NCBI GenBank assembly: GCA_965203275.1
Contig: OZ241865.1
Coordinates: 480,001-544,000, forward strand
Direction: 5' to 3'
DNA from: Bdellovibrionales bacterium
GTDB lineage: Bacteria; Bdellovibrionota; Bdellovibrionia; Bdellovibrionales; JAUICD01
DNA: 64,000 bases
The first letter of the stretch is position 1. Each line of letters starts with the position of its first letter. Of this stretch, positions 47,150-54,305 are shown one piece after another. A program made the position numbers and the translations under genes. Below the pieces are notes generated by a model. It did not search any database and had not been told where the DNA came from. It saw only the letters and a list, made by a program, of their open reading frames with translations.

Positions 47150-49777
47150 ATGACCTCTCATAAACTTAAGAATAATTTATTAATTATATGTTCTTCCTTA
47201 TTGATTTTGATCATTATTTCATCTGTTATTTTTTTCCAGATTCTTCAAAGTGATCATCAAATCATAGACTTTGAAGATCGTCGATATCGATTTAGCATTC
47301 TTTCAGATGAACTACGTCAAACTATTGACGATCTCACTCGCATGTCTAGATTATATGTAGTGACAAGAGATACCAAATACAGAGAATATTTTCAAACTAT
47401 TTTAGATATCAAAGATGGCATACGTCCTCGTCCTGAAGATTACCACAATATCTATTGGGACTTCTATGTCGCTACAGGAGAGCCTCCACGCAAAAACAGC
47501 CATCCTATAGATTTACAAACACTTATCCAGCAAGAAAGTTTGACCCAAAAAGAAATGTTTTTTTTTCAAGAAGCTGAAGTAGCTACCAAAAACCTTATCC
47601 AATTACAAGAACAAGCTATGAATATTATGATAGGATTTGTGGCCACCGATGATGATGGAAGATACACTTTAAACATTGCTGATCCTGTTAAAGCAAGACA
47701 AATCCTCCATGGGGATGAATACAATCAAATCAAACAAAAAGCTATGCACTTTTTAAATACCTTTTTTGAGTTGGTCAATACTCGCTTCTCAGATACACTC
47801 AACAAACATAAAACAACCAGAAAAAAACTTTATACATCTTTAACGATCACCCTGGGTGTTATATTTTGCCTTGTTATTATATCTTTCTTATTAATTATTT
47901 TTTCTCCACAATTACAGCAAATCCAAAGAGTCACTCAACATAAATTGCCTATTTCTAGATTTTTCAGTACTTATTTTTTTAGACACTGGCCCTTAATTGC
48001 AGGGGCAACCGTGACTATCTTATTAACTGTAAGTATTTCTTGGTGGAGTTTTAATCAAAATAGAATATTGATCTATGATAATTTAAATAGTCATTTAGAT
48101 CAAATCCTTCAAGCAGGACATAACACAGTACTCGACTGGATTAACAGGACAAAAATAGAAGCTTCATTTATCGCGAATGAAATATCTTATCATGTTTCTG
48201 AAGAAGATTTTCAAAATACTCAAGGAGATACATCAAATAAATTTCAGGAAGAATTTTCCGCCTCCCGTATTTTAGAATCAGAAATATCTGAAAAATATAT
48301 CATAACAAATGCAGGAGGTTTTATAGTAGCTAGTGATGATGAATCTCTTATAGGTAAACTTTTTCAAATACCTTCGTTCATGCAAAGGCAAATCAATCAC
48401 GCTCCCTATCAGACTGTTTATTTTGTATCTCAAGATGATACATTGGCATCTCTTTTACCTACCAAAACCATTATTTTTGGCACTCGCATCTCAGAAGAAA
48501 AAGGAGCTGTTTATCTTTTACTTGATGGTGAGGAAATATTAAGTCGATTGCTTAAAAGACACTTTTTTTACAACACAGATGAAATATATATAGCCAATAC
48601 AAAGGGTGAATTTATCAGTCAAAGCCGATGGATGGATGAACTCCTTCAAAGAGGTTTTATCTTAGGAGATAGTATAACAGGCTTAAAAATCAGTAGTGAT
48701 CCTCTTGATGATCAGTCTATTCTTTCTTTATCAGCTCAAGATGTTATCGCAGGTCATAAAGGAGTTAATTTAAGTGGCTATCCTAATTATTTAAATGACA
48801 ATGTTGTAGGGCGATGGATGTGGGATCAAACATATCAATTTGGTGTGATTGCTGAATGGAATTTTCAGGAAGCTCTTGCCACATTTATCAGTTACAAACA
48901 AACAGCTAATCTACAAAATAGTTTTATTGTGCTTTTAATATTTGTATTGGCTTTATTTTTTATATGGAAAAATATAGAAGTAGATAAAACAAACTTAGAA
49001 CTCACTGGTGCTTACAAAACCATCACAAAGCAAAATAAAAAATACTTAAGTGATCTACAAATTGGTCAAAAAGTACAAATGGACATGTTACCTGAGGTGA
49101 TCAAAGGGAATGGATTTGCTATTGATGCTCTTTTACAACCTGCTCAGGTTGTTTCTGGTGATTTTTATGATTTTGACTTTATAGATAAACAAGATAGAAA
49201 TAAAATTTATTTCACTATAGGTGATGTATCAGGTAAGGGTGTACCTGCTGCTTTGTTTATGTCTGTGACAAAAGCCTTTTTGCACAAAACATTAGATATT
49301 GTACATACATCACAGGATATTGTTAGCAATGTCAACAGAGAGCTTTCACATAACAATGAACGCTGTATGTTTGTGACTTTGATTGTAGGTATTATGGATG
49401 TACAAACAGGTATTGTACAAATTACAAATGCAGGCCATACAGCACCCTACATAAAAAAACGTACAGGCGAAGTGGTTTGTTTAAGTGAAAACCAAGGGCC
49501 ACTTGTAGGAACTTTTAAAGATGCTAAGTATGATGTGCAGTCTATTAAAATGTCTAAAGGAGATATTTTGTTGTTTTATACTGATGGAGTGACAGAAGCA
49601 CAAAATGAAAATAAGGAGTTTTATGAGGAATATCGTATGAGAGATTTTTTAGAACACAATACCTTTACATCTCCAAAATATCTTACAAAAGCTCTATCTC
49701 AGCATGTGACTTCATTTATTGGCTCATCTCAGCAATTTGATGATATCACTATTTTATCTCTTAGCTACTTAGGGTAA
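47150..49777 (+). CDS. Membrane sensor with C-terminal SpoIIE/RsbU PP2C phosphatase
   Basis: Four TM helices; VSGDFYDF, IGDVSGKGVPAALFM, NAGH, YTDGVTEA, DDIT. Confidence 0.92.
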   Translation: MTSHKLKNNLLIICSSLLILIIISSVIFFQILQSDHQIIDFEDRRYRFSILSDELRQTIDDLTRMSRLYVVTRDTKYREYFQTILDIKDGIRPRPEDYHNIYWDFYVATGEPPRKNSHPIDLQTLIQQESLTQKEMFFFQEAEVATKNLIQLQEQAMNIMIGFVATDDDGRYTLNIADPVKARQILHGDEYNQIKQKAMHFLNTFFELVNTRFSDTLNKHKTTRKKLYTSLTITLGVIFCLVIISFLLIIFSPQLQQIQRVTQHKLPISRFFSTYFFRHWPLIAGATVTILLTVSISWWSFNQNRILIYDNLNSHLDQILQAGHNTVLDWINRTKIEASFIANEISYHVSEEDFQNTQGDTSNKFQEEFSASRILESEISEKYIITNAGGFIVASDDESLIGKLFQIPSFMQRQINHAPYQTVYFVSQDDTLASLLPTKTIIFGTRISEEKGAVYLLLDGEEILSRLLKRHFFYNTDEIYIANTKGEFISQSRWMDELLQRGFILGDSITGLKISSDPLDDQSILSLSAQDVIAGHKGVNLSGYPNYLNDNVVGRWMWDQTYQFGVIAEWNFQEALATFISYKQTANLQNSFIVLLIFVLALFFIWKNIEVDKTNLELTGAYKTITKQNKKYLSDLQIGQKVQMDMLPEVIKGNGFAIDALLQPAQVVSGDFYDFDFIDKQDRNKIYFTIGDVSGKGVPAALFMSVTKAFLHKTLDIVHTSQDIVSNVNRELSHNNERCMFVTLIVGIMDVQTGIVQITNAGHTAPYIKKRTGEVVCLSENQGPLVGTFKDAKYDVQSIKMSKGDILLFYTDGVTEAQNENKEFYEEYRMRDFLEHNTFTSPKYLTKALSQHVTSFIGSSQQFDDITILSLSYLG

Positions 49778-49815: not shown

Positions 49816-50846
49816 TTTCACTAAAAATAAACCAGCCTCTGGCTACTTTCTGGTTGCCAGCCGAAGGCTTTCGCCTTCTTAAATGCTGGCAACCTAGAAA
49901 GCTTGACCACTTTTAGTGAAACAAACTCCCTAACCCCACCCACCGCCCTTCGATTCTGCTTTTCTATTTGTATGTTTTTTATGAGTGGAATGCGGGTGCA
50001 GGCTTCCGAAGTCCTCAACCTTCGCTTGCTTTTGGGGAGCAAGCGGGCCTGCGGAAGATCTTCAGCCTGCCCCCGCCTCCCACTCATAATATTCTTCATT
50101 TTTTTGAAAGTTATGCAGAATCTAAAAAAATATAAAAAAACAAAAAAACGAAATCTTGTTTCCTTAATATTTCACTCAAAATGCATCATGCCTCTGGCAT
50201 GTTTTTGGGCGTTTGTCTCACTAAAAATAAACCAGCCTCTGGCTGTTTTTGGGCATTGGCTCACTAAAAGTGGTCTAGCCTCTGGCTACTTTCTGGCAAT
50301 GACCGCAATGGCTTTCGCCATTGGCAAAATGGTCATTGCCTAGAAAGCTTGACCACTTTTAGTAGGGAGGATCCCTTCGTCCCTTAACTCCATGTTAAGG
50401 AAAAAGTTCTTTCTTACACCTTTTGGCTCTCGCCGTCGATCAAAGGCTGATTGCCTCAAAAATCCGTTTATTTTTAGTAAGGAGGATCTCCTCTTTTCTT
50501 AACACCATGTTAAGGAAACAAGCTATTTATTTCACTTTTTTCGCCGTTGACAAAATAGTCATTGCCTCAAAAATCTATGCATTTTGAGTAGGGAGGATCC
50601 TTTTATTCCTTTACACCATGTTAGGGAAAATTTCTTTTATTACCTCAAGAGCAAGCGGGCTTACAAATGAAACTCTGTTTCCTTAACATGTAGTAAAAAA
50701 ACGAAGGGTTCCTCCCTACTAAAAGTAAACGGACTTTTGAGGCATTGCTCTTTTTAGACAGCGTAAGCTGTCAGAGCAATGTCCAAAAGTAGCCAGAGGC
50801 TAGTTTACTTTTAGTGAACCAGAGGTGTGGCTCATTTTGAGTGAAA
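49816..50846. mobile_element. Structured repeat mosaic, locus 7 (intact long hairpin about 49952-50122; triple-nested units 50170-50629; plus unit 50677-50819)
   Basis: Same modules; arms of the nested units match in reverse order. Confidence 0.87.
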
Positions 50847-51077: not shown

Positions 51078-51698
51078 ATGAAAAATACATATCTCAAATT
51101 AATGGCTTTTGTTTTTATTGGATTTTTATCTTCAAACCATGCCTTAGCTTATTGCCCTTTTAATGGCTGTGAAGATTTGCCTGTTGAGGAATTCAATATC
51201 AACATCAATGATCTAACTCAAGAAGAACATGATATGTTAATTGAAACATTAGAAGCTCATACTTCAGATTCATTCGACCTCACAGAACCTTTAATGCTAG
51301 GATCTATTCATTCTATTAATGTTAAACTATTTAGCAAAAGAAGTGTGAGAGATGCTTTAATTCATATAAAATTCTTGAATGGTAATAAAATATCAGTTAT
51401 AAAGTTAAATGCAGATATTCCTAATGATCATTCAATTAAATTTAAATCTAAATTAATGCAAGCTTTAATAAAACATCGAGTCACTTCTCCTCACTCTTCT
51501 TATGCAAAGTTTGTGACAGTTCTTCAAATAGTAGGTGCTAGAAGGGTTAGATTTGTTCATGGTGTCTTTCGTAGCCTCATTCTTCCTTTATTGGCTACAG
51601 GTTCTATTTACAGTGTCGCAGAAGAATTTTCAGAAGAAGAAAATAATAATCCAGCTATCAATGATCAAATAATTCTTGATGAATTAGATATGCAATAA
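51078..51698 (+). CDS. Hypothetical secreted protein
   Basis: AAAGGAG RBS, signal peptide ending ALA. Confidence 0.65.
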   Translation: MKNTYLKLMAFVFIGFLSSNHALAYCPFNGCEDLPVEEFNININDLTQEEHDMLIETLEAHTSDSFDLTEPLMLGSIHSINVKLFSKRSVRDALIHIKFLNGNKISVIKLNADIPNDHSIKFKSKLMQALIKHRVTSPHSSYAKFVTVLQIVGARRVRFVHGVFRSLILPLLATGSIYSVAEEFSEEENNNPAINDQIILDELDMQ

Positions 51699-51722: not shown

Positions 51723-54305
51723 TTAAGGAGAGGCTGGCGTTTTAGTTGGTAACTTAGTTGGTGTCTTAGTCGGTGTTTTGGTCGGTGTTTTAGTTGGTGG
51801 TTTATTTGCAGAACAACTTTGGTTTGTGCTACCACCATGCAGTCCTTCACAGTGCCACCTATACGCAGTAGCAGTATCCTCTATTGCTTGATCATCAGGA
51901 GTGCCGTGCAAACACGTATTCCTCTCTGTACCACACTGGCCGTTTATAGGCAACGGGATAGGACTTACATTTGTGATGGGTTCATTATCACCTAAGTTTT
52001 GATTGTCAATAGTCCCATCAGCTCTACGCTTTGTAATTGCCCCTTGCCCTAACTGACCAAACCAATTATCTCCCCAACACTTTACATTCCCATTATCTAA
52101 AACAAAGCACGCATTAGAGCCACCTGCTGAAATAGCCGTCACACTCCGTCCACTATCTAGAGCTACAGCTTGTAAATGAGTTCCCATTTCATTGGCTTGA
52201 TCTCCAATGTATGATTTGGTGTTTTGATTATTGCCTATTCCTAATTGACCCTTGGAATTGTCTCCAAAACACTTCATTTTACTATTATCTAAGAGAACAC
52301 ATGTGTGAGCAATTCCTGCATCAACCGCACTCACAGTGCGGTTAGCACCCAATGCAATAGCAACATTAGAAGCTGCTATTTCATTATACTGATCGCCATA
52401 GTTTTGTTTATCGTTTTGATTATCACCTAAACCTAACTGCCCTGCATGATTCCGACCCCAACATCTTAAACTTTTATCCTCAAAAGTTGCACAGGTATGG
52501 TAGGCCCCTGCTGTGACAGCCACAGCTTTTTTATTTAACATCACAGGTGAAATATTTGCAAATTCTCCTGTGGCATCACCAATATTAACATTACTGCTAT
52601 CTTTACCAGCAGTTAAACCTAGCTGACCATATTCGTTACTACCCCAACATTTCACCTTACCATCATCACTACCACCGGTCAGGACAGCACAAGTATGTTT
52701 GTGTCCAGCAGTGATGGCCTTGACCTTAAAGTTTTGACCGCCTACAGGAGGCTGATTGGCTACCATTTTCTGAGCGTTATGGCCTATATTTACTGTATTA
52801 TCGTAACCTAACTGACCCTTATCATTGTATCCCCAACATTTCATAGCTTTATTCTCTTTGAGAATAGCACACGTGTGATGGCTTCCAAGAGCAATAGCAT
52901 AAGCTGTCAAATTGGTTCCTAAATTCACAGTGGCAAGATTTGTCATTTCATCAACACTTCCATCACCTATATCATTTGTATGACCTAATCCCAACTGACC
53001 ATAAGTATTTTGCCCCCAACATTTTATTTTATTATTATCTAAAATAGCACAAGTATGTTTTCCTTGTTTTTGTGTGTTGTTTTGGCAGGTATCTGAAGCT
53101 TGAGGAGGATACAATCTATCGCAACAATTAACAGAGTTTTCACCATTTGTGCAGGCAGGAGCCTGTGCAAAGACTGGAGATGGAGCAACTGAAGGAGCAG
53201 GTGAAGCAGCAGCTTGTAAAGTATTCAAACAAGTTTGTCGATTTTGTGTATTAGAATCAGGGCAACAATTATTGGTGTTGTCACCTTGACATAAATGAAG
53301 CCGTTCTGCTCCCTCTGCTGCTGCAATGGTAATAGCTTTTCTACCTAAATGAACAGTAAGGAGACGACTCATTTCATTGCTCTGATCACCTATGCGACGT
53401 ATACTGTCTGTCGTATTGCCAGCAGTTAAACCCAACTGCCCTGCTGAATTATCCCCCCAACATTTAACTGAACCCTGAGATAAAAAGCAACTATGCCAAG
53501 TGCCTGTAGCTATTTGATCAACTATAACTAAAGTTTGTGTGATTTCAAACCGGACACTTGTGACCTGAGATTCTTCTCGTGGCATGGCCTTTTTTGCCTG
53601 AATATGCAAATAAAAAGTACCACTTGTTTTTGTATTTGCTGATGGATAAGTTACTGTTTTGGTATCTCCATACGCTTCATTAGTGAATGCATGAGTCGCA
53701 GAAGCACTGACAACATGACGGAAAGTACACGGCGGTTTGTTACAGTTCCAATTCCAAGTCACAGAAGTTTGAGGCGAAGTGGGTGGAACAATTCCTGTCA
53801 CCTCTAATGATGATGATGATGTTTCATCAGATGATGTTCCTCCTATAACAGCTTTTCTTGTGATCACTCCAGATTTGTATCCAGAACTACTATCCATCGC
53901 CTGAACATGTAAGTAATAAGTGCAGGGAGGACTTGAACAATCTTGTAATATTCTTTTAGCATTTTTATTGTTTGCTTTAAAATCATTGCTTGTAAATTTA
54001 GATTGTTGCTTTGCATTTGTAATGCGAGAAGCATACGTGCAGTTTTTCTTTGTATCAGTACATCTCCAAGTCCATTCTACTGCTCCTTTTGGTGTATCAA
54101 AATCTTTTGGAAGAACACTTAATCCAAGAGATTGTGAGGTCCCTGCCCCCTTTCCAGCAGAATTATTTGTCTGGCAATTTTGAAAGCCAATAAATAATAC
54201 AAACAAACAACCCACTAAAACATACAAAACTTTGCGATGTTCCGTGTTGATACGATTATTACGCAATTGGGTTTGAATTTTTTTCTTTATATTTGTTATA
54301 TTCAT
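51723..54305 (-). CDS. RCC1/BLIP-II repeat, Cys-rich surface lipoprotein
   Basis: About 7 repeats of HTCA..D..KCWG.N..GQLG; FQNC lipobox; NGQCG Cys module; PTKT tail repeats; GGAGG RBS. Confidence 0.88.
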   Translation of the reverse strand: MNITNIKKKIQTQLRNNRINTEHRKVLYVLVGCLFVLFIGFQNCQTNNSAGKGAGTSQSLGLSVLPKDFDTPKGAVEWTWRCTDTKKNCTYASRITNAKQQSKFTSNDFKANNKNAKRILQDCSSPPCTYYLHVQAMDSSSGYKSGVITRKAVIGGTSSDETSSSSLEVTGIVPPTSPQTSVTWNWNCNKPPCTFRHVVSASATHAFTNEAYGDTKTVTYPSANTKTSGTFYLHIQAKKAMPREESQVTSVRFEITQTLVIVDQIATGTWHSCFLSQGSVKCWGDNSAGQLGLTAGNTTDSIRRIGDQSNEMSRLLTVHLGRKAITIAAAEGAERLHLCQGDNTNNCCPDSNTQNRQTCLNTLQAAASPAPSVAPSPVFAQAPACTNGENSVNCCDRLYPPQASDTCQNNTQKQGKHTCAILDNNKIKCWGQNTYGQLGLGHTNDIGDGSVDEMTNLATVNLGTNLTAYAIALGSHHTCAILKENKAMKCWGYNDKGQLGYDNTVNIGHNAQKMVANQPPVGGQNFKVKAITAGHKHTCAVLTGGSDDGKVKCWGSNEYGQLGLTAGKDSSNVNIGDATGEFANISPVMLNKKAVAVTAGAYHTCATFEDKSLRCWGRNHAGQLGLGDNQNDKQNYGDQYNEIAASNVAIALGANRTVSAVDAGIAHTCVLLDNSKMKCFGDNSKGQLGIGNNQNTKSYIGDQANEMGTHLQAVALDSGRSVTAISAGGSNACFVLDNGNVKCWGDNWFGQLGQGAITKRRADGTIDNQNLGDNEPITNVSPIPLPINGQCGTERNTCLHGTPDDQAIEDTATAYRWHCEGLHGGSTNQSCSANKPPTKTPTKTPTKTPTKLPTKTPASP

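What the first reader, a model, noticed from the sequence alone, without database searches (positions are those of the whole stretch)
50170..50629. Russian-doll nesting: elements inserted into the hairpin tips of other elements, three deep
Seen on the minus strand. Unit X 5' half (P1 arm at 50577-50589) stops at its GAAA loop. Unit Y 5' half (arm 50466-50478) follows and stops just after its GAGA loop. Then comes a complete unit Z (arms 50351-50363 and 50263-50275), then Y's 3' half (arm 50220-50232, exact complement of Y's 5' arm), then X's 3' half (arm 50174-50186, exact complement of X's 5' arm). The order X-Y-Z-Y'-X' with subtype-matched arms is what successive insertion at the apical hairpin would give; each time most of the 3' arm of the inner helix is lost. 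Inference: the element targets its own folded structure.
Basis: partly seen in the sequence, partly recalled or inferred. Interest (0 to 1): 0.9.

Follow-up and report, generated by a model that had tools for sequence, protein, structure and literature searches.

The report
Self-nesting hairpin DNA repeat, three deep
Three copies of a small, abundant, hairpin-folding selfish DNA repeat really do sit one inside another here, but the repeat lands at many points along older copies of itself rather than at their hairpin tips, and the enzyme that moves it is unknown.

Summary
The nest is real. All six arms are where stated, and X loses 15 nt and Y 11 nt at the insertions. The unit is a ~157-bp non-coding repeat, about 1,000 copies in this Bdellovibrionales-like genome; this scan already reported the family and its self-nesting from other windows of the same genome. 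Genome-wide, outer arms match last-in-first-out in 39 of 100 nests (shuffle 14.7±3.5), and first-in-first-out in 0 of 79. Tip targeting fails: 1 of 319 right junctions and 15 of 296 left junctions inside a host fall in the tip loop, and the tip stays intact in 21 of 37 matched nests. Self-insertion is strongly same-orientation (319:9). There is no target duplication and 0-49 nt of target are lost. The 3' end joins without homology after a 7-9-nt tail; the 5' flank partly resembles the DNA it replaces. The tip is a GCGNNAGC DNA mini-hairpin (472 of 575), pointing to folded ssDNA. Best model: one-ended strand transfer with homeologous resolution, then recombination among copies. No RAYT, Y1, IS110 or RT was found. 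Verdict: new variant of REPIN/MITE-like repeats; enzyme unknown.

The parts
50610..50626 (-). Unit X leader site S (CC[T/C]TAAC-AT-NNN-GT[T/C/A]AA, imperfect palindrome)
50577..50589 (-). Unit X P1 5' arm (subtype f)
50539..50576 (-). Unit X 5' interior: P2 5' arm, bulge, P3 5' arm, ends after the GAAA loop
50516..50538 (-). Foreign left flank carried in with Y (23 nt; family seen in 6 host/inner combinations)
50425..50515 (-). Unit Y 5' half: S 50499-50515, P1 arm 50466-50478 (subtype g), interior ending 3 nt after the GAGA loop
50401..50424 (-). Foreign left flank carried in with Z (24 nt; family seen in 9 host/inner combinations)
50263..50400 (-). Complete unit Z (subtype b): S 50384-50400, P1 50351-50363/50263-50275, tip mini-hairpin 50310-50319, side hairpin H 50276-50288
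50256..50262 (-). Z tail (7 foreign nt)
50220..50255 (-). Unit Y 3' remnant: end of P2 3' arm, H 50233-50245, P1 3' arm 50220-50232
50211..50219 (-). Y tail (9 foreign nt)
50174..50210 (-). Unit X 3' remnant: end of P2 3' arm, H, P1 3' arm 50174-50186
50162..50173 (-). X tail joined to the left half of an S site on the opposite strand (class of 103 junctions genome-wide)
50627..50680 (.). Hub between two divergent S sites (98 such S-to-S modules in the genome, 90 with the same core)
50681..50842 (+). Fourth unit W (subtype a, 50681-50815) plus a stacked 27-nt orphan head of subtype d (to 50842)
49930..50161 (.). Second repeated hairpin module (M), about 70 matches of 80 nt or more in the genome
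49820..49917 (-). Chimeric unit without leader (b opener, g closer); its 5' arm is preceded by a reversed tail (22 such junctions genome-wide)

Best explanation
The nest records real insertions of a non-autonomous ~157-bp DNA repeat into older copies of itself. The unit acts as one folded DNA strand (leader palindrome S, small hairpin B, 13-bp P1 stem, three-way junction with side hairpin H, bulged P2, P3 capped by a GCGNNAGC mini-hairpin) [fold and covariation shown; ssDNA inferred]. Its two ends behave differently [shown]: the 3' end stops about 7-9 nt past P1 and is joined to the target without homology; the 5' end carries 14-25 nt of donor flank and joins where that flank loosely resembles the target, deleting the target bases in between, with no duplication. 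I infer a one-ended strand transfer (or target-primed copying) at the 3' end, resolved by homeologous annealing at the 5' end. Old copies in the same orientation offer the best partial homology, so they are preferred targets. Because outer S, P1, H and tail survive, a nest stays a mobile, foldable unit. Recombination among ~1,000 copies then swaps left and right junctions, giving the 61% mismatched nests and the stacked heads [inferred]. The enzyme is unidentified.
For: LIFO 42 of 105 vs 15.3±3.5 and LIFO 36 vs FIFO 0 of 79; deduplicated 39 of 100. P2 subtype matches in 9 of 9 P1-matched nests, 6 of 10 mismatched ones. 564 of 1112 right junctions land in elements, which are 21.5% of non-coding DNA; same:opposite orientation within the body 319:9. 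Left flank vs replaced host 4.04 vs null 3.16±0.17 (90 junctions); donor 3' end vs host 2.28 vs null 2.41±0.16 (82 junctions), tails 7-9 nt in 53 of 82. 12 clean empty/filled pairs: target loss 0-49 nt, no duplication. GCGNNAGC in 472 of 575 tips, 0 on the other strand; 89 GNYA and 31 five-base loops of 273, G-T 66 vs A-C 23, extrahelical A 274 of 283. 14 of 81 nests duplicate host sequence; flank families recur across host subtypes. Same fold, stacked heads and half-nests in related genomes.
Against: No mobilising enzyme found. Junction counts include copied descendants, so they overstate independent events. The specific prediction that a mismatched inner pair is followed by a closer of the opener's type was not significant (5 of 14 vs 2.7±1.4). 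No replichore bias (290:285), though the GC skew is too weak to place the origin. Tandem neighbours also share subtype above chance (71 of 256 vs 47.8±5.7), so local homogenisation may add to arm matching. The homeology signal is modest and the junction positions rest on best-matching library copies. One clean insertion shows no target loss and no visible homology.
Confidence: 0.55

Rival explanations
1. Recombination builds the nests without two-ended insertion: separate one-sided events (microhomology deletions in tandem arrays, gene conversion through the shared body) create half-nests, and matched arms arise from local similarity.
For: 61 of 100 nests mismatch; 353 unmatched closers and 155 unmatched openers; junction families are reused across subtypes and 14 of 81 nests duplicate host DNA; neighbours share subtype above chance.
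Against: Outer closers avoid the inner label (8 of 100 vs 16.3) yet match the outer opener (39 of 100); P2 matches 9 of 9; opener gap and closer gap are anticorrelated in matched nests (r = -0.54, n = 37; -0.18 in 49 mismatched); insertions into multicopy genes need true two-sided integration.
Confidence: 0.2
2. One reading: an enzyme recognises the folded element as its target and inserts at the apical hairpin (or at hairpins in general).
For: Both breaks in this nest are at or just after the tip loop; the right-end hot spots H (172) and S (105 same strand including its left edge, 103 opposite) are hairpins; 6 of 12 empty targets are locally well folded.
Against: Tip loop holds 1 of 319 right and 15 of 296 left junctions; P3 plus tip holds 30% of left junctions against 24% of the length; tip intact in 21 of 37; 6 of 12 empty targets are not folded and 4 of the 6 folded ones are one repeated module.
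Confidence: 0.12
3. The unit moves through an RNA copy and reverse transcription (fixed A-rich 3' end, sloppy 5' end), with the four-helix-bundle protein as an Avd-like helper (the Avd link is recalled, from no call).
For: End asymmetry and target loss; PF05635 has 14, 19, 19 copies in the three carriers and 0 in the two other family members; RNA fold is strong.
Against: No RVT_1 match in G000 or G004; 120 of 273 tip loops are not GNRA; no Rfam match; PF05635 is also expanded in G021 and G025, which lack the element, and is not beside the element in the G001/G004 loci read.
Confidence: 0.1
4. Assembly artefact from collapsed or shuffled repeats.
For: No contig spans the locus in four runs.
Against: Junction strings recur elsewhere; one run from another study holds 50493-50571, across the X/Y junction, with 0 differences; 10 triple-or-deeper nests and LIFO order genome-wide; half-nests and stacked heads in a related genome record.
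Confidence: 0.03

Closest known systems
REPINs / REP-BIME with RAYT (TnpA-REP); PMC3116915 and PMC8266576 (passages seen)
   Same: Short, intergenic, high-copy, non-coding, folds as ssDNA with a conserved bulge; forms tandem clusters. [quoted passage not shown]
   Different: No RAYT or Y1 gene found; no fixed GTAG foot; branched fold with eight covarying P1 subtypes; ragged ends with target loss; nests up to four deep.
IS91-family rolling-circle elements; PMC13181058 (passages seen)
   Same: Two unlike ends, no target duplication, ssDNA intermediate, capture of DNA beyond one end.
   Different: No IS91 transposase found (controls silent); no retained CTTG/GTTC target; target DNA is lost; both ends ragged.
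Bacterial MITEs and Bacillus bcr1; PMC3184786 (passages seen)
   Same: Size about 155 bp, multi-stem fold kept by compensatory changes, scattered copies.
   Different: No terminal inverted repeats at the true ends, no direct-repeat duplication (bcr1 has 5 bp); arms vary in pairs.
Mini-hairpin DNA at ssDNA origins (phage G4); PMC13037366 (passages seen)
   Same: The tip is the GCGNNAGC mini-hairpin described there as far more stable in DNA than RNA.
   Different: Alignment to the G4 origin is no better than shuffles (35 vs 31.2±3.7); no origin function shown.

Membership tests
REPIN/RAYT | High-copy, intergenic, hairpin-forming unit | tested here: met
   2054 exact P1 arms, 493 loci, fold
REPIN/RAYT | Cognate RAYT (Y1 HUH) gene in the genome | tested here: not met
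   PF01797 0 in G000 and G004, 1 in G001; NF047646 0 of 3; controls rang
REPIN/RAYT | Conserved GTAG (or CGTC) at the palindrome foot | tested here: not met
   The stem of H starts with TAG in 112 of 552; six other starts covary
REPIN/RAYT | Cleavage at CT by TnpA-REP | not testable with these tools
   needs biochemistry; genomic ends are ragged
MITE | Target-site duplication | tested here: not met
   0 of 12 clean empty/filled pairs; loss of 0-49 nt
MITE | Conserved terminal inverted repeats | tested here: not met
   P1 arms are internal and covary in 8 subtypes; S and tail lie outside
MITE | Under about 400 bp, non-coding | tested here: met
   about 157 bp
IS91 family (mini element) | No target duplication, two unlike ends | tested here: met
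IS91 family (mini element) | Y2 HUH transposase in trans | tested here: inconclusive
   PF04986 0 in G000, PF14319 0 of 3; controls silent in both
IS91 family (mini element) | Target tetranucleotide CTTG/GTTC kept beside the fixed end, target intact | tested here: not met
   tails are mostly foreign to the empty allele and target bases are lost
Integron cassette / attC | Integron integrase | tested here: not met
   the two tyrosine recombinases score 55 and 54 bits against a cut-off of 265
Integron cassette / attC | Crossover at one fixed position in the site (feature recalled) | tested here: not met
   junctions lie 3-25 nt outside S and at many host positions
Known structured RNA | Rfam match | tested here: not met
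   0 at gathering threshold in the window
Known structured RNA | Expression as a discrete RNA | not testable with these tools
Primase-dependent ssDNA origin (G4 type) | Homology beyond the mini-hairpin | tested here: not met

The most novel reading that the evidence does not exclude
A new class of selfish ssDNA element that needs no transposase of a known family: a released, nuclease-resistant folded strand is joined by its 3' end and annealed by its 5' flank, using host replication or repair enzymes or an unrecognised partner such as the co-expanded four-helix-bundle or PDDEXK_2 protein. Nests remain mobile units, so the element builds fractal, self-similar composites and can drag upstream genes along.
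Probability: 0.25. Interest if true: 0.8.

Novelty: new variant of a known kind. Interest (0 to 1): 0.55.

Why it matters
How REP-like repeats insert is still open: for REPINs, PMC3116915 could show excisions but no certain insertions. Here about 1,000 subtype-labelled copies, with nests and empty/filled gene pairs, record junction geometry directly and show an end asymmetry that fits none of the families tested. If no known transposase is involved, this is a new route to repeat expansion (about 6-8% of a 2.57-Mb genome) and possibly a compact, TSD-free insertion tool. The nesting itself has precedent, and the tip-targeting idea does not hold.

Tried and rejected
Tip-specific insertion: rejected. 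Constant inserted length in nests: only 14 of 37 matched nests fall in 152-162. Guide-like covariation between the bases 5' of P1 and the tail: scattered z-scores up to 6.6 with 30 shuffles, no register. Mobiliser searches: Y1 (11, 54), RAYT (68), RT (14, 53), IS110 (15), Y2/IS91 (21, 89; controls silent), HUH motif scan of own ORFs (57; 6 motif hits, none pursued). The 187-aa tyrosine recombinase is order-wide and was not found in G004. YhgA-like Rpn has 16 copies in G003, which lacks the element. The 46-of-70 Rpn adjacency is inflated by spurious ORFs inside elements. Loss of mismatch repair: MutS present in 9 of 9. dif-like site: nothing convincing. G4-origin homology: not above shuffles. 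Phage and plasmid collections: only short chance hits; one viral and four metagenome pattern hits are not the element. Laid contigs do not span the nest. Literature: 9 searches answered; (Bdellovibrionota, sponge, repeat, intergenic) returned 0 papers and none described this family; subscription journals are not covered.

Full report
Observation. The minus strand of 50170-50629 reads X5'-Y5'-Z-Y3'-X3' as described. The three arm pairs are exact inverted repeats at the stated places. Against complete copies of the same subtype, X lacks 15 nt and Y 11 nt; each inner unit brings a 23-24-nt foreign flank in front and a 7-9-nt tail behind. The region folds with nested P1 stems, z = -11.5 as RNA. 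No Rfam family matches the window. The locus lies between a PP2C-like gene (47150-49777) and an unknown ORF (51078-51698).

The unit. The window is G000:480001-544000, one 2.57-Mb contig, 35% GC. The repeat has 2054 exact P1 arms of eight subtypes, in 493 loci, covering 153 kb by a tight mask or 7.9% by locus span. Anatomy: left flank, S (CCTTAAC-AT-NNN-GTHAA), hairpin B, 13-bp P1, P2 with an extrahelical A (274 of 283), a 6-nt bulge, P3 with tip, side hairpin H (CCAGAGG with covarying stem), P1', and a tail whose information falls to zero at +9. P2 arms agree in 556 of 556 complete copies. The tip is GCGNNAGC in 472 of 575 complete copies and never on the other strand. PMC13037366 (passages seen) describes this motif as an extraordinarily stable DNA mini-hairpin, much weaker as RNA. 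120 of 273 distinct loops are not GNRA and G-T pairs outnumber A-C 66 to 23. I infer that the top strand folds as DNA. The leader pattern was found in 3 of 201 genomes of the order: 495, 95 and 2 matches in G000, G001, G004. The same fold with new compensatory changes is seen in G001 and G004 regions and in loci L067-L092, a record titled Bdellovibrionales. The rpsQ-rplN spacer (gene names recalled from the sequence) is empty in G000 and holds arrays in G001 and G004.

Innermost pairs match in 573 of 647. Outer pairs match in 42 of 105 against 15.3±3.5 (maximum 29 in 10,000 shuffles). In 79 two-level nests with different labels, 36 are last-in-first-out and 0 first-in-first-out. Ten nests are three or more deep; in three of them, ours included, every level matches. 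After deduplication 39 of 100 match, against 14.7±3.5, or 19.1±3.7 within junction class; outer closers match the inner label in only 8 of 100. P2 subtype agrees in 9 of 9 diagnosable P1-matched nests and 6 of 10 mismatched ones. Against a pure insertion history: 61 of 100 mismatch, 353 closers and 155 openers are unpaired, 14 of 81 nests duplicate host DNA, and tandem neighbours share subtype above chance, 71 of 256 vs 47.8. Pairs with an unclear label were dropped before each count.

Where insertions land. Of 1112 distinct right junctions, 450 land in a same-strand element, 114 in an opposite-strand one (103 at S), 22 in 7-mer arrays and 526 elsewhere; elements are 21.5% of non-coding DNA. 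Inside the host body the ratio is 319 to 9; 172 are in H and 1 in the tip loop. Of 296 left junctions in a host body, 135 are in the P2 3' arm, 42 and 33 in the P3 arms, 41 in the bulge and 15 in the tip loop. The tip is intact in 21 of 37 matched nests. These counts include copied descendants and are not independent events. The tip breaks in this nest are two of several recurrent junction families.

Junction chemistry. One search found an empty allele for 43 of 371 units; I kept 12 with clean collinear non-element targets and dropped 31 (tandem self-hits, 7-mer arrays, element against element). In the 12, target loss was 0-49 nt, the foreign left flank 3-23 nt and the tail 0-10 nt, with no duplication. 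Interrupted four-helix-bundle genes show the same left junction with different right junctions. In nests, the left flank resembles the host bases it replaces (4.04 vs 3.16±0.17, 90 junctions) while the 3' end does not (2.28 vs 2.41±0.16, 82 junctions), and tails are 7-9 nt in 53 of 82. Folding at the 12 empty targets was mixed.

Mechanism. Shown: fold, covariation, nesting order, orientation bias, end asymmetry, target loss. Inferred: a folded top strand is transferred or copied from its 3' end and resolved by loose annealing of its 5' flank, which favours same-orientation copies; recombination then reshuffles junctions. One prediction of this model was not significant (5 of 14 vs 2.7±1.4), and there is no replichore bias.

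Enzyme. Not found: Y1, RAYT, RT, IS110, IS91-type (controls silent for the last), integron integrase. G000 is 90% complete by markers. Following lead e1-7797205, PF05635 has 14, 19, 19 copies in the carriers and 0 in G002 and G003, but also 18 and 11 in two non-carriers. In G000 an S site follows 14 of 14 matches, but not in the G001/G004 loci read. PDDEXK_2 follows 14, 5, 1 vs 0, 0. Both are leads from five related genomes only. PMC4990558 (passages seen) states that the S23p family has no known function; the nearest solved structure is 2GSC.

Comparison. It works like a REPIN (ssDNA fold, intergenic, inserts into its kin; PMC3116915 and PMC8266576, passages seen) and has IS91-like unlike ends (PMC13181058, passages seen), but fails membership tests for REPIN, MITE (PMC3184786, passages seen), IS91 and attC. 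PMC3733652 (passages seen) has no mention of Bdellovibrio. No supplement of any paper was read; REPIN supplementary figures may show nests more like these. Other papers were seen as search listings only.

Artefact check. Contigs of four runs from three studies break at the edges of the locus, so the nest is not confirmed on reads; one 79-nt record crosses the X/Y junction without a difference, and four of five junction strings recur.

Verdict. Real nest, real self-preference, wrong target rule. The family and its self-nesting were reported earlier by this scan from other windows of this genome. Added here: the genome-wide LIFO test, the junction map, the end asymmetry and the mini-hairpin evidence. 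Novelty: new variant of a known kind; interest 0.55.

Noticed in passing
window 49930-50161: A second repeated long-hairpin module (about 70 matches) that shares the GAGCAAGC core with the hub and is itself a target of the element.
   Followed up: partly
window 50627-50680: Hub between two divergent S sites; 98 such modules seed arrays in both directions.
   Followed up: partly
G000:C1:472301-472669 and 13 other places: Four-helix-bundle (PF05635) gene cassette flanked by 7-mer repeats; 5 of 14 matches are interrupted by the element.
   Followed up: yes
L042, L043, L044, L039 (G025, G031, G021): Four-helix-bundle genes in other families; in L042-L044 as head-to-head pairs around a long palindrome, without the hairpin element.
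   Followed up: no
G000, e.g. 1335343-1336416 and 1135838-1137040: Large expansion of Rpn-type nuclease genes (PDDEXK_2 14, YhgA-like 16 matches), many broken by the element; about a third of the 61 genes flanked on both sides are of this kind.
   Followed up: partly
L026 and L033: Tandem units that duplicate about 45 nt of the upstream gene end together with the element, shared by G001 and G004; G000 is empty there.
   Followed up: partly
L069, L071, L026: Relatives carry extra hairpins inserted at H (102- and 116-nt P1 spans).
   Followed up: no
G000:C1:2047789-2048349: A 187-aa catalytic-domain-only tyrosine recombinase conserved across the order, function unknown.
   Followed up: partly
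window 51723-54305 (-): 860-aa RCC1-repeat protein with a lipoprotein-like start and a 12-bp tandem repeat at 51736-51816.
   Followed up: no
window 49820-49917: Unit whose interior appears flipped relative to its end (22 such junctions genome-wide).
   Followed up: partly
G000 loci overall: Loci are over-represented between convergent genes (52 of 140 such gaps vs 18-20% of other gaps).
   Followed up: no
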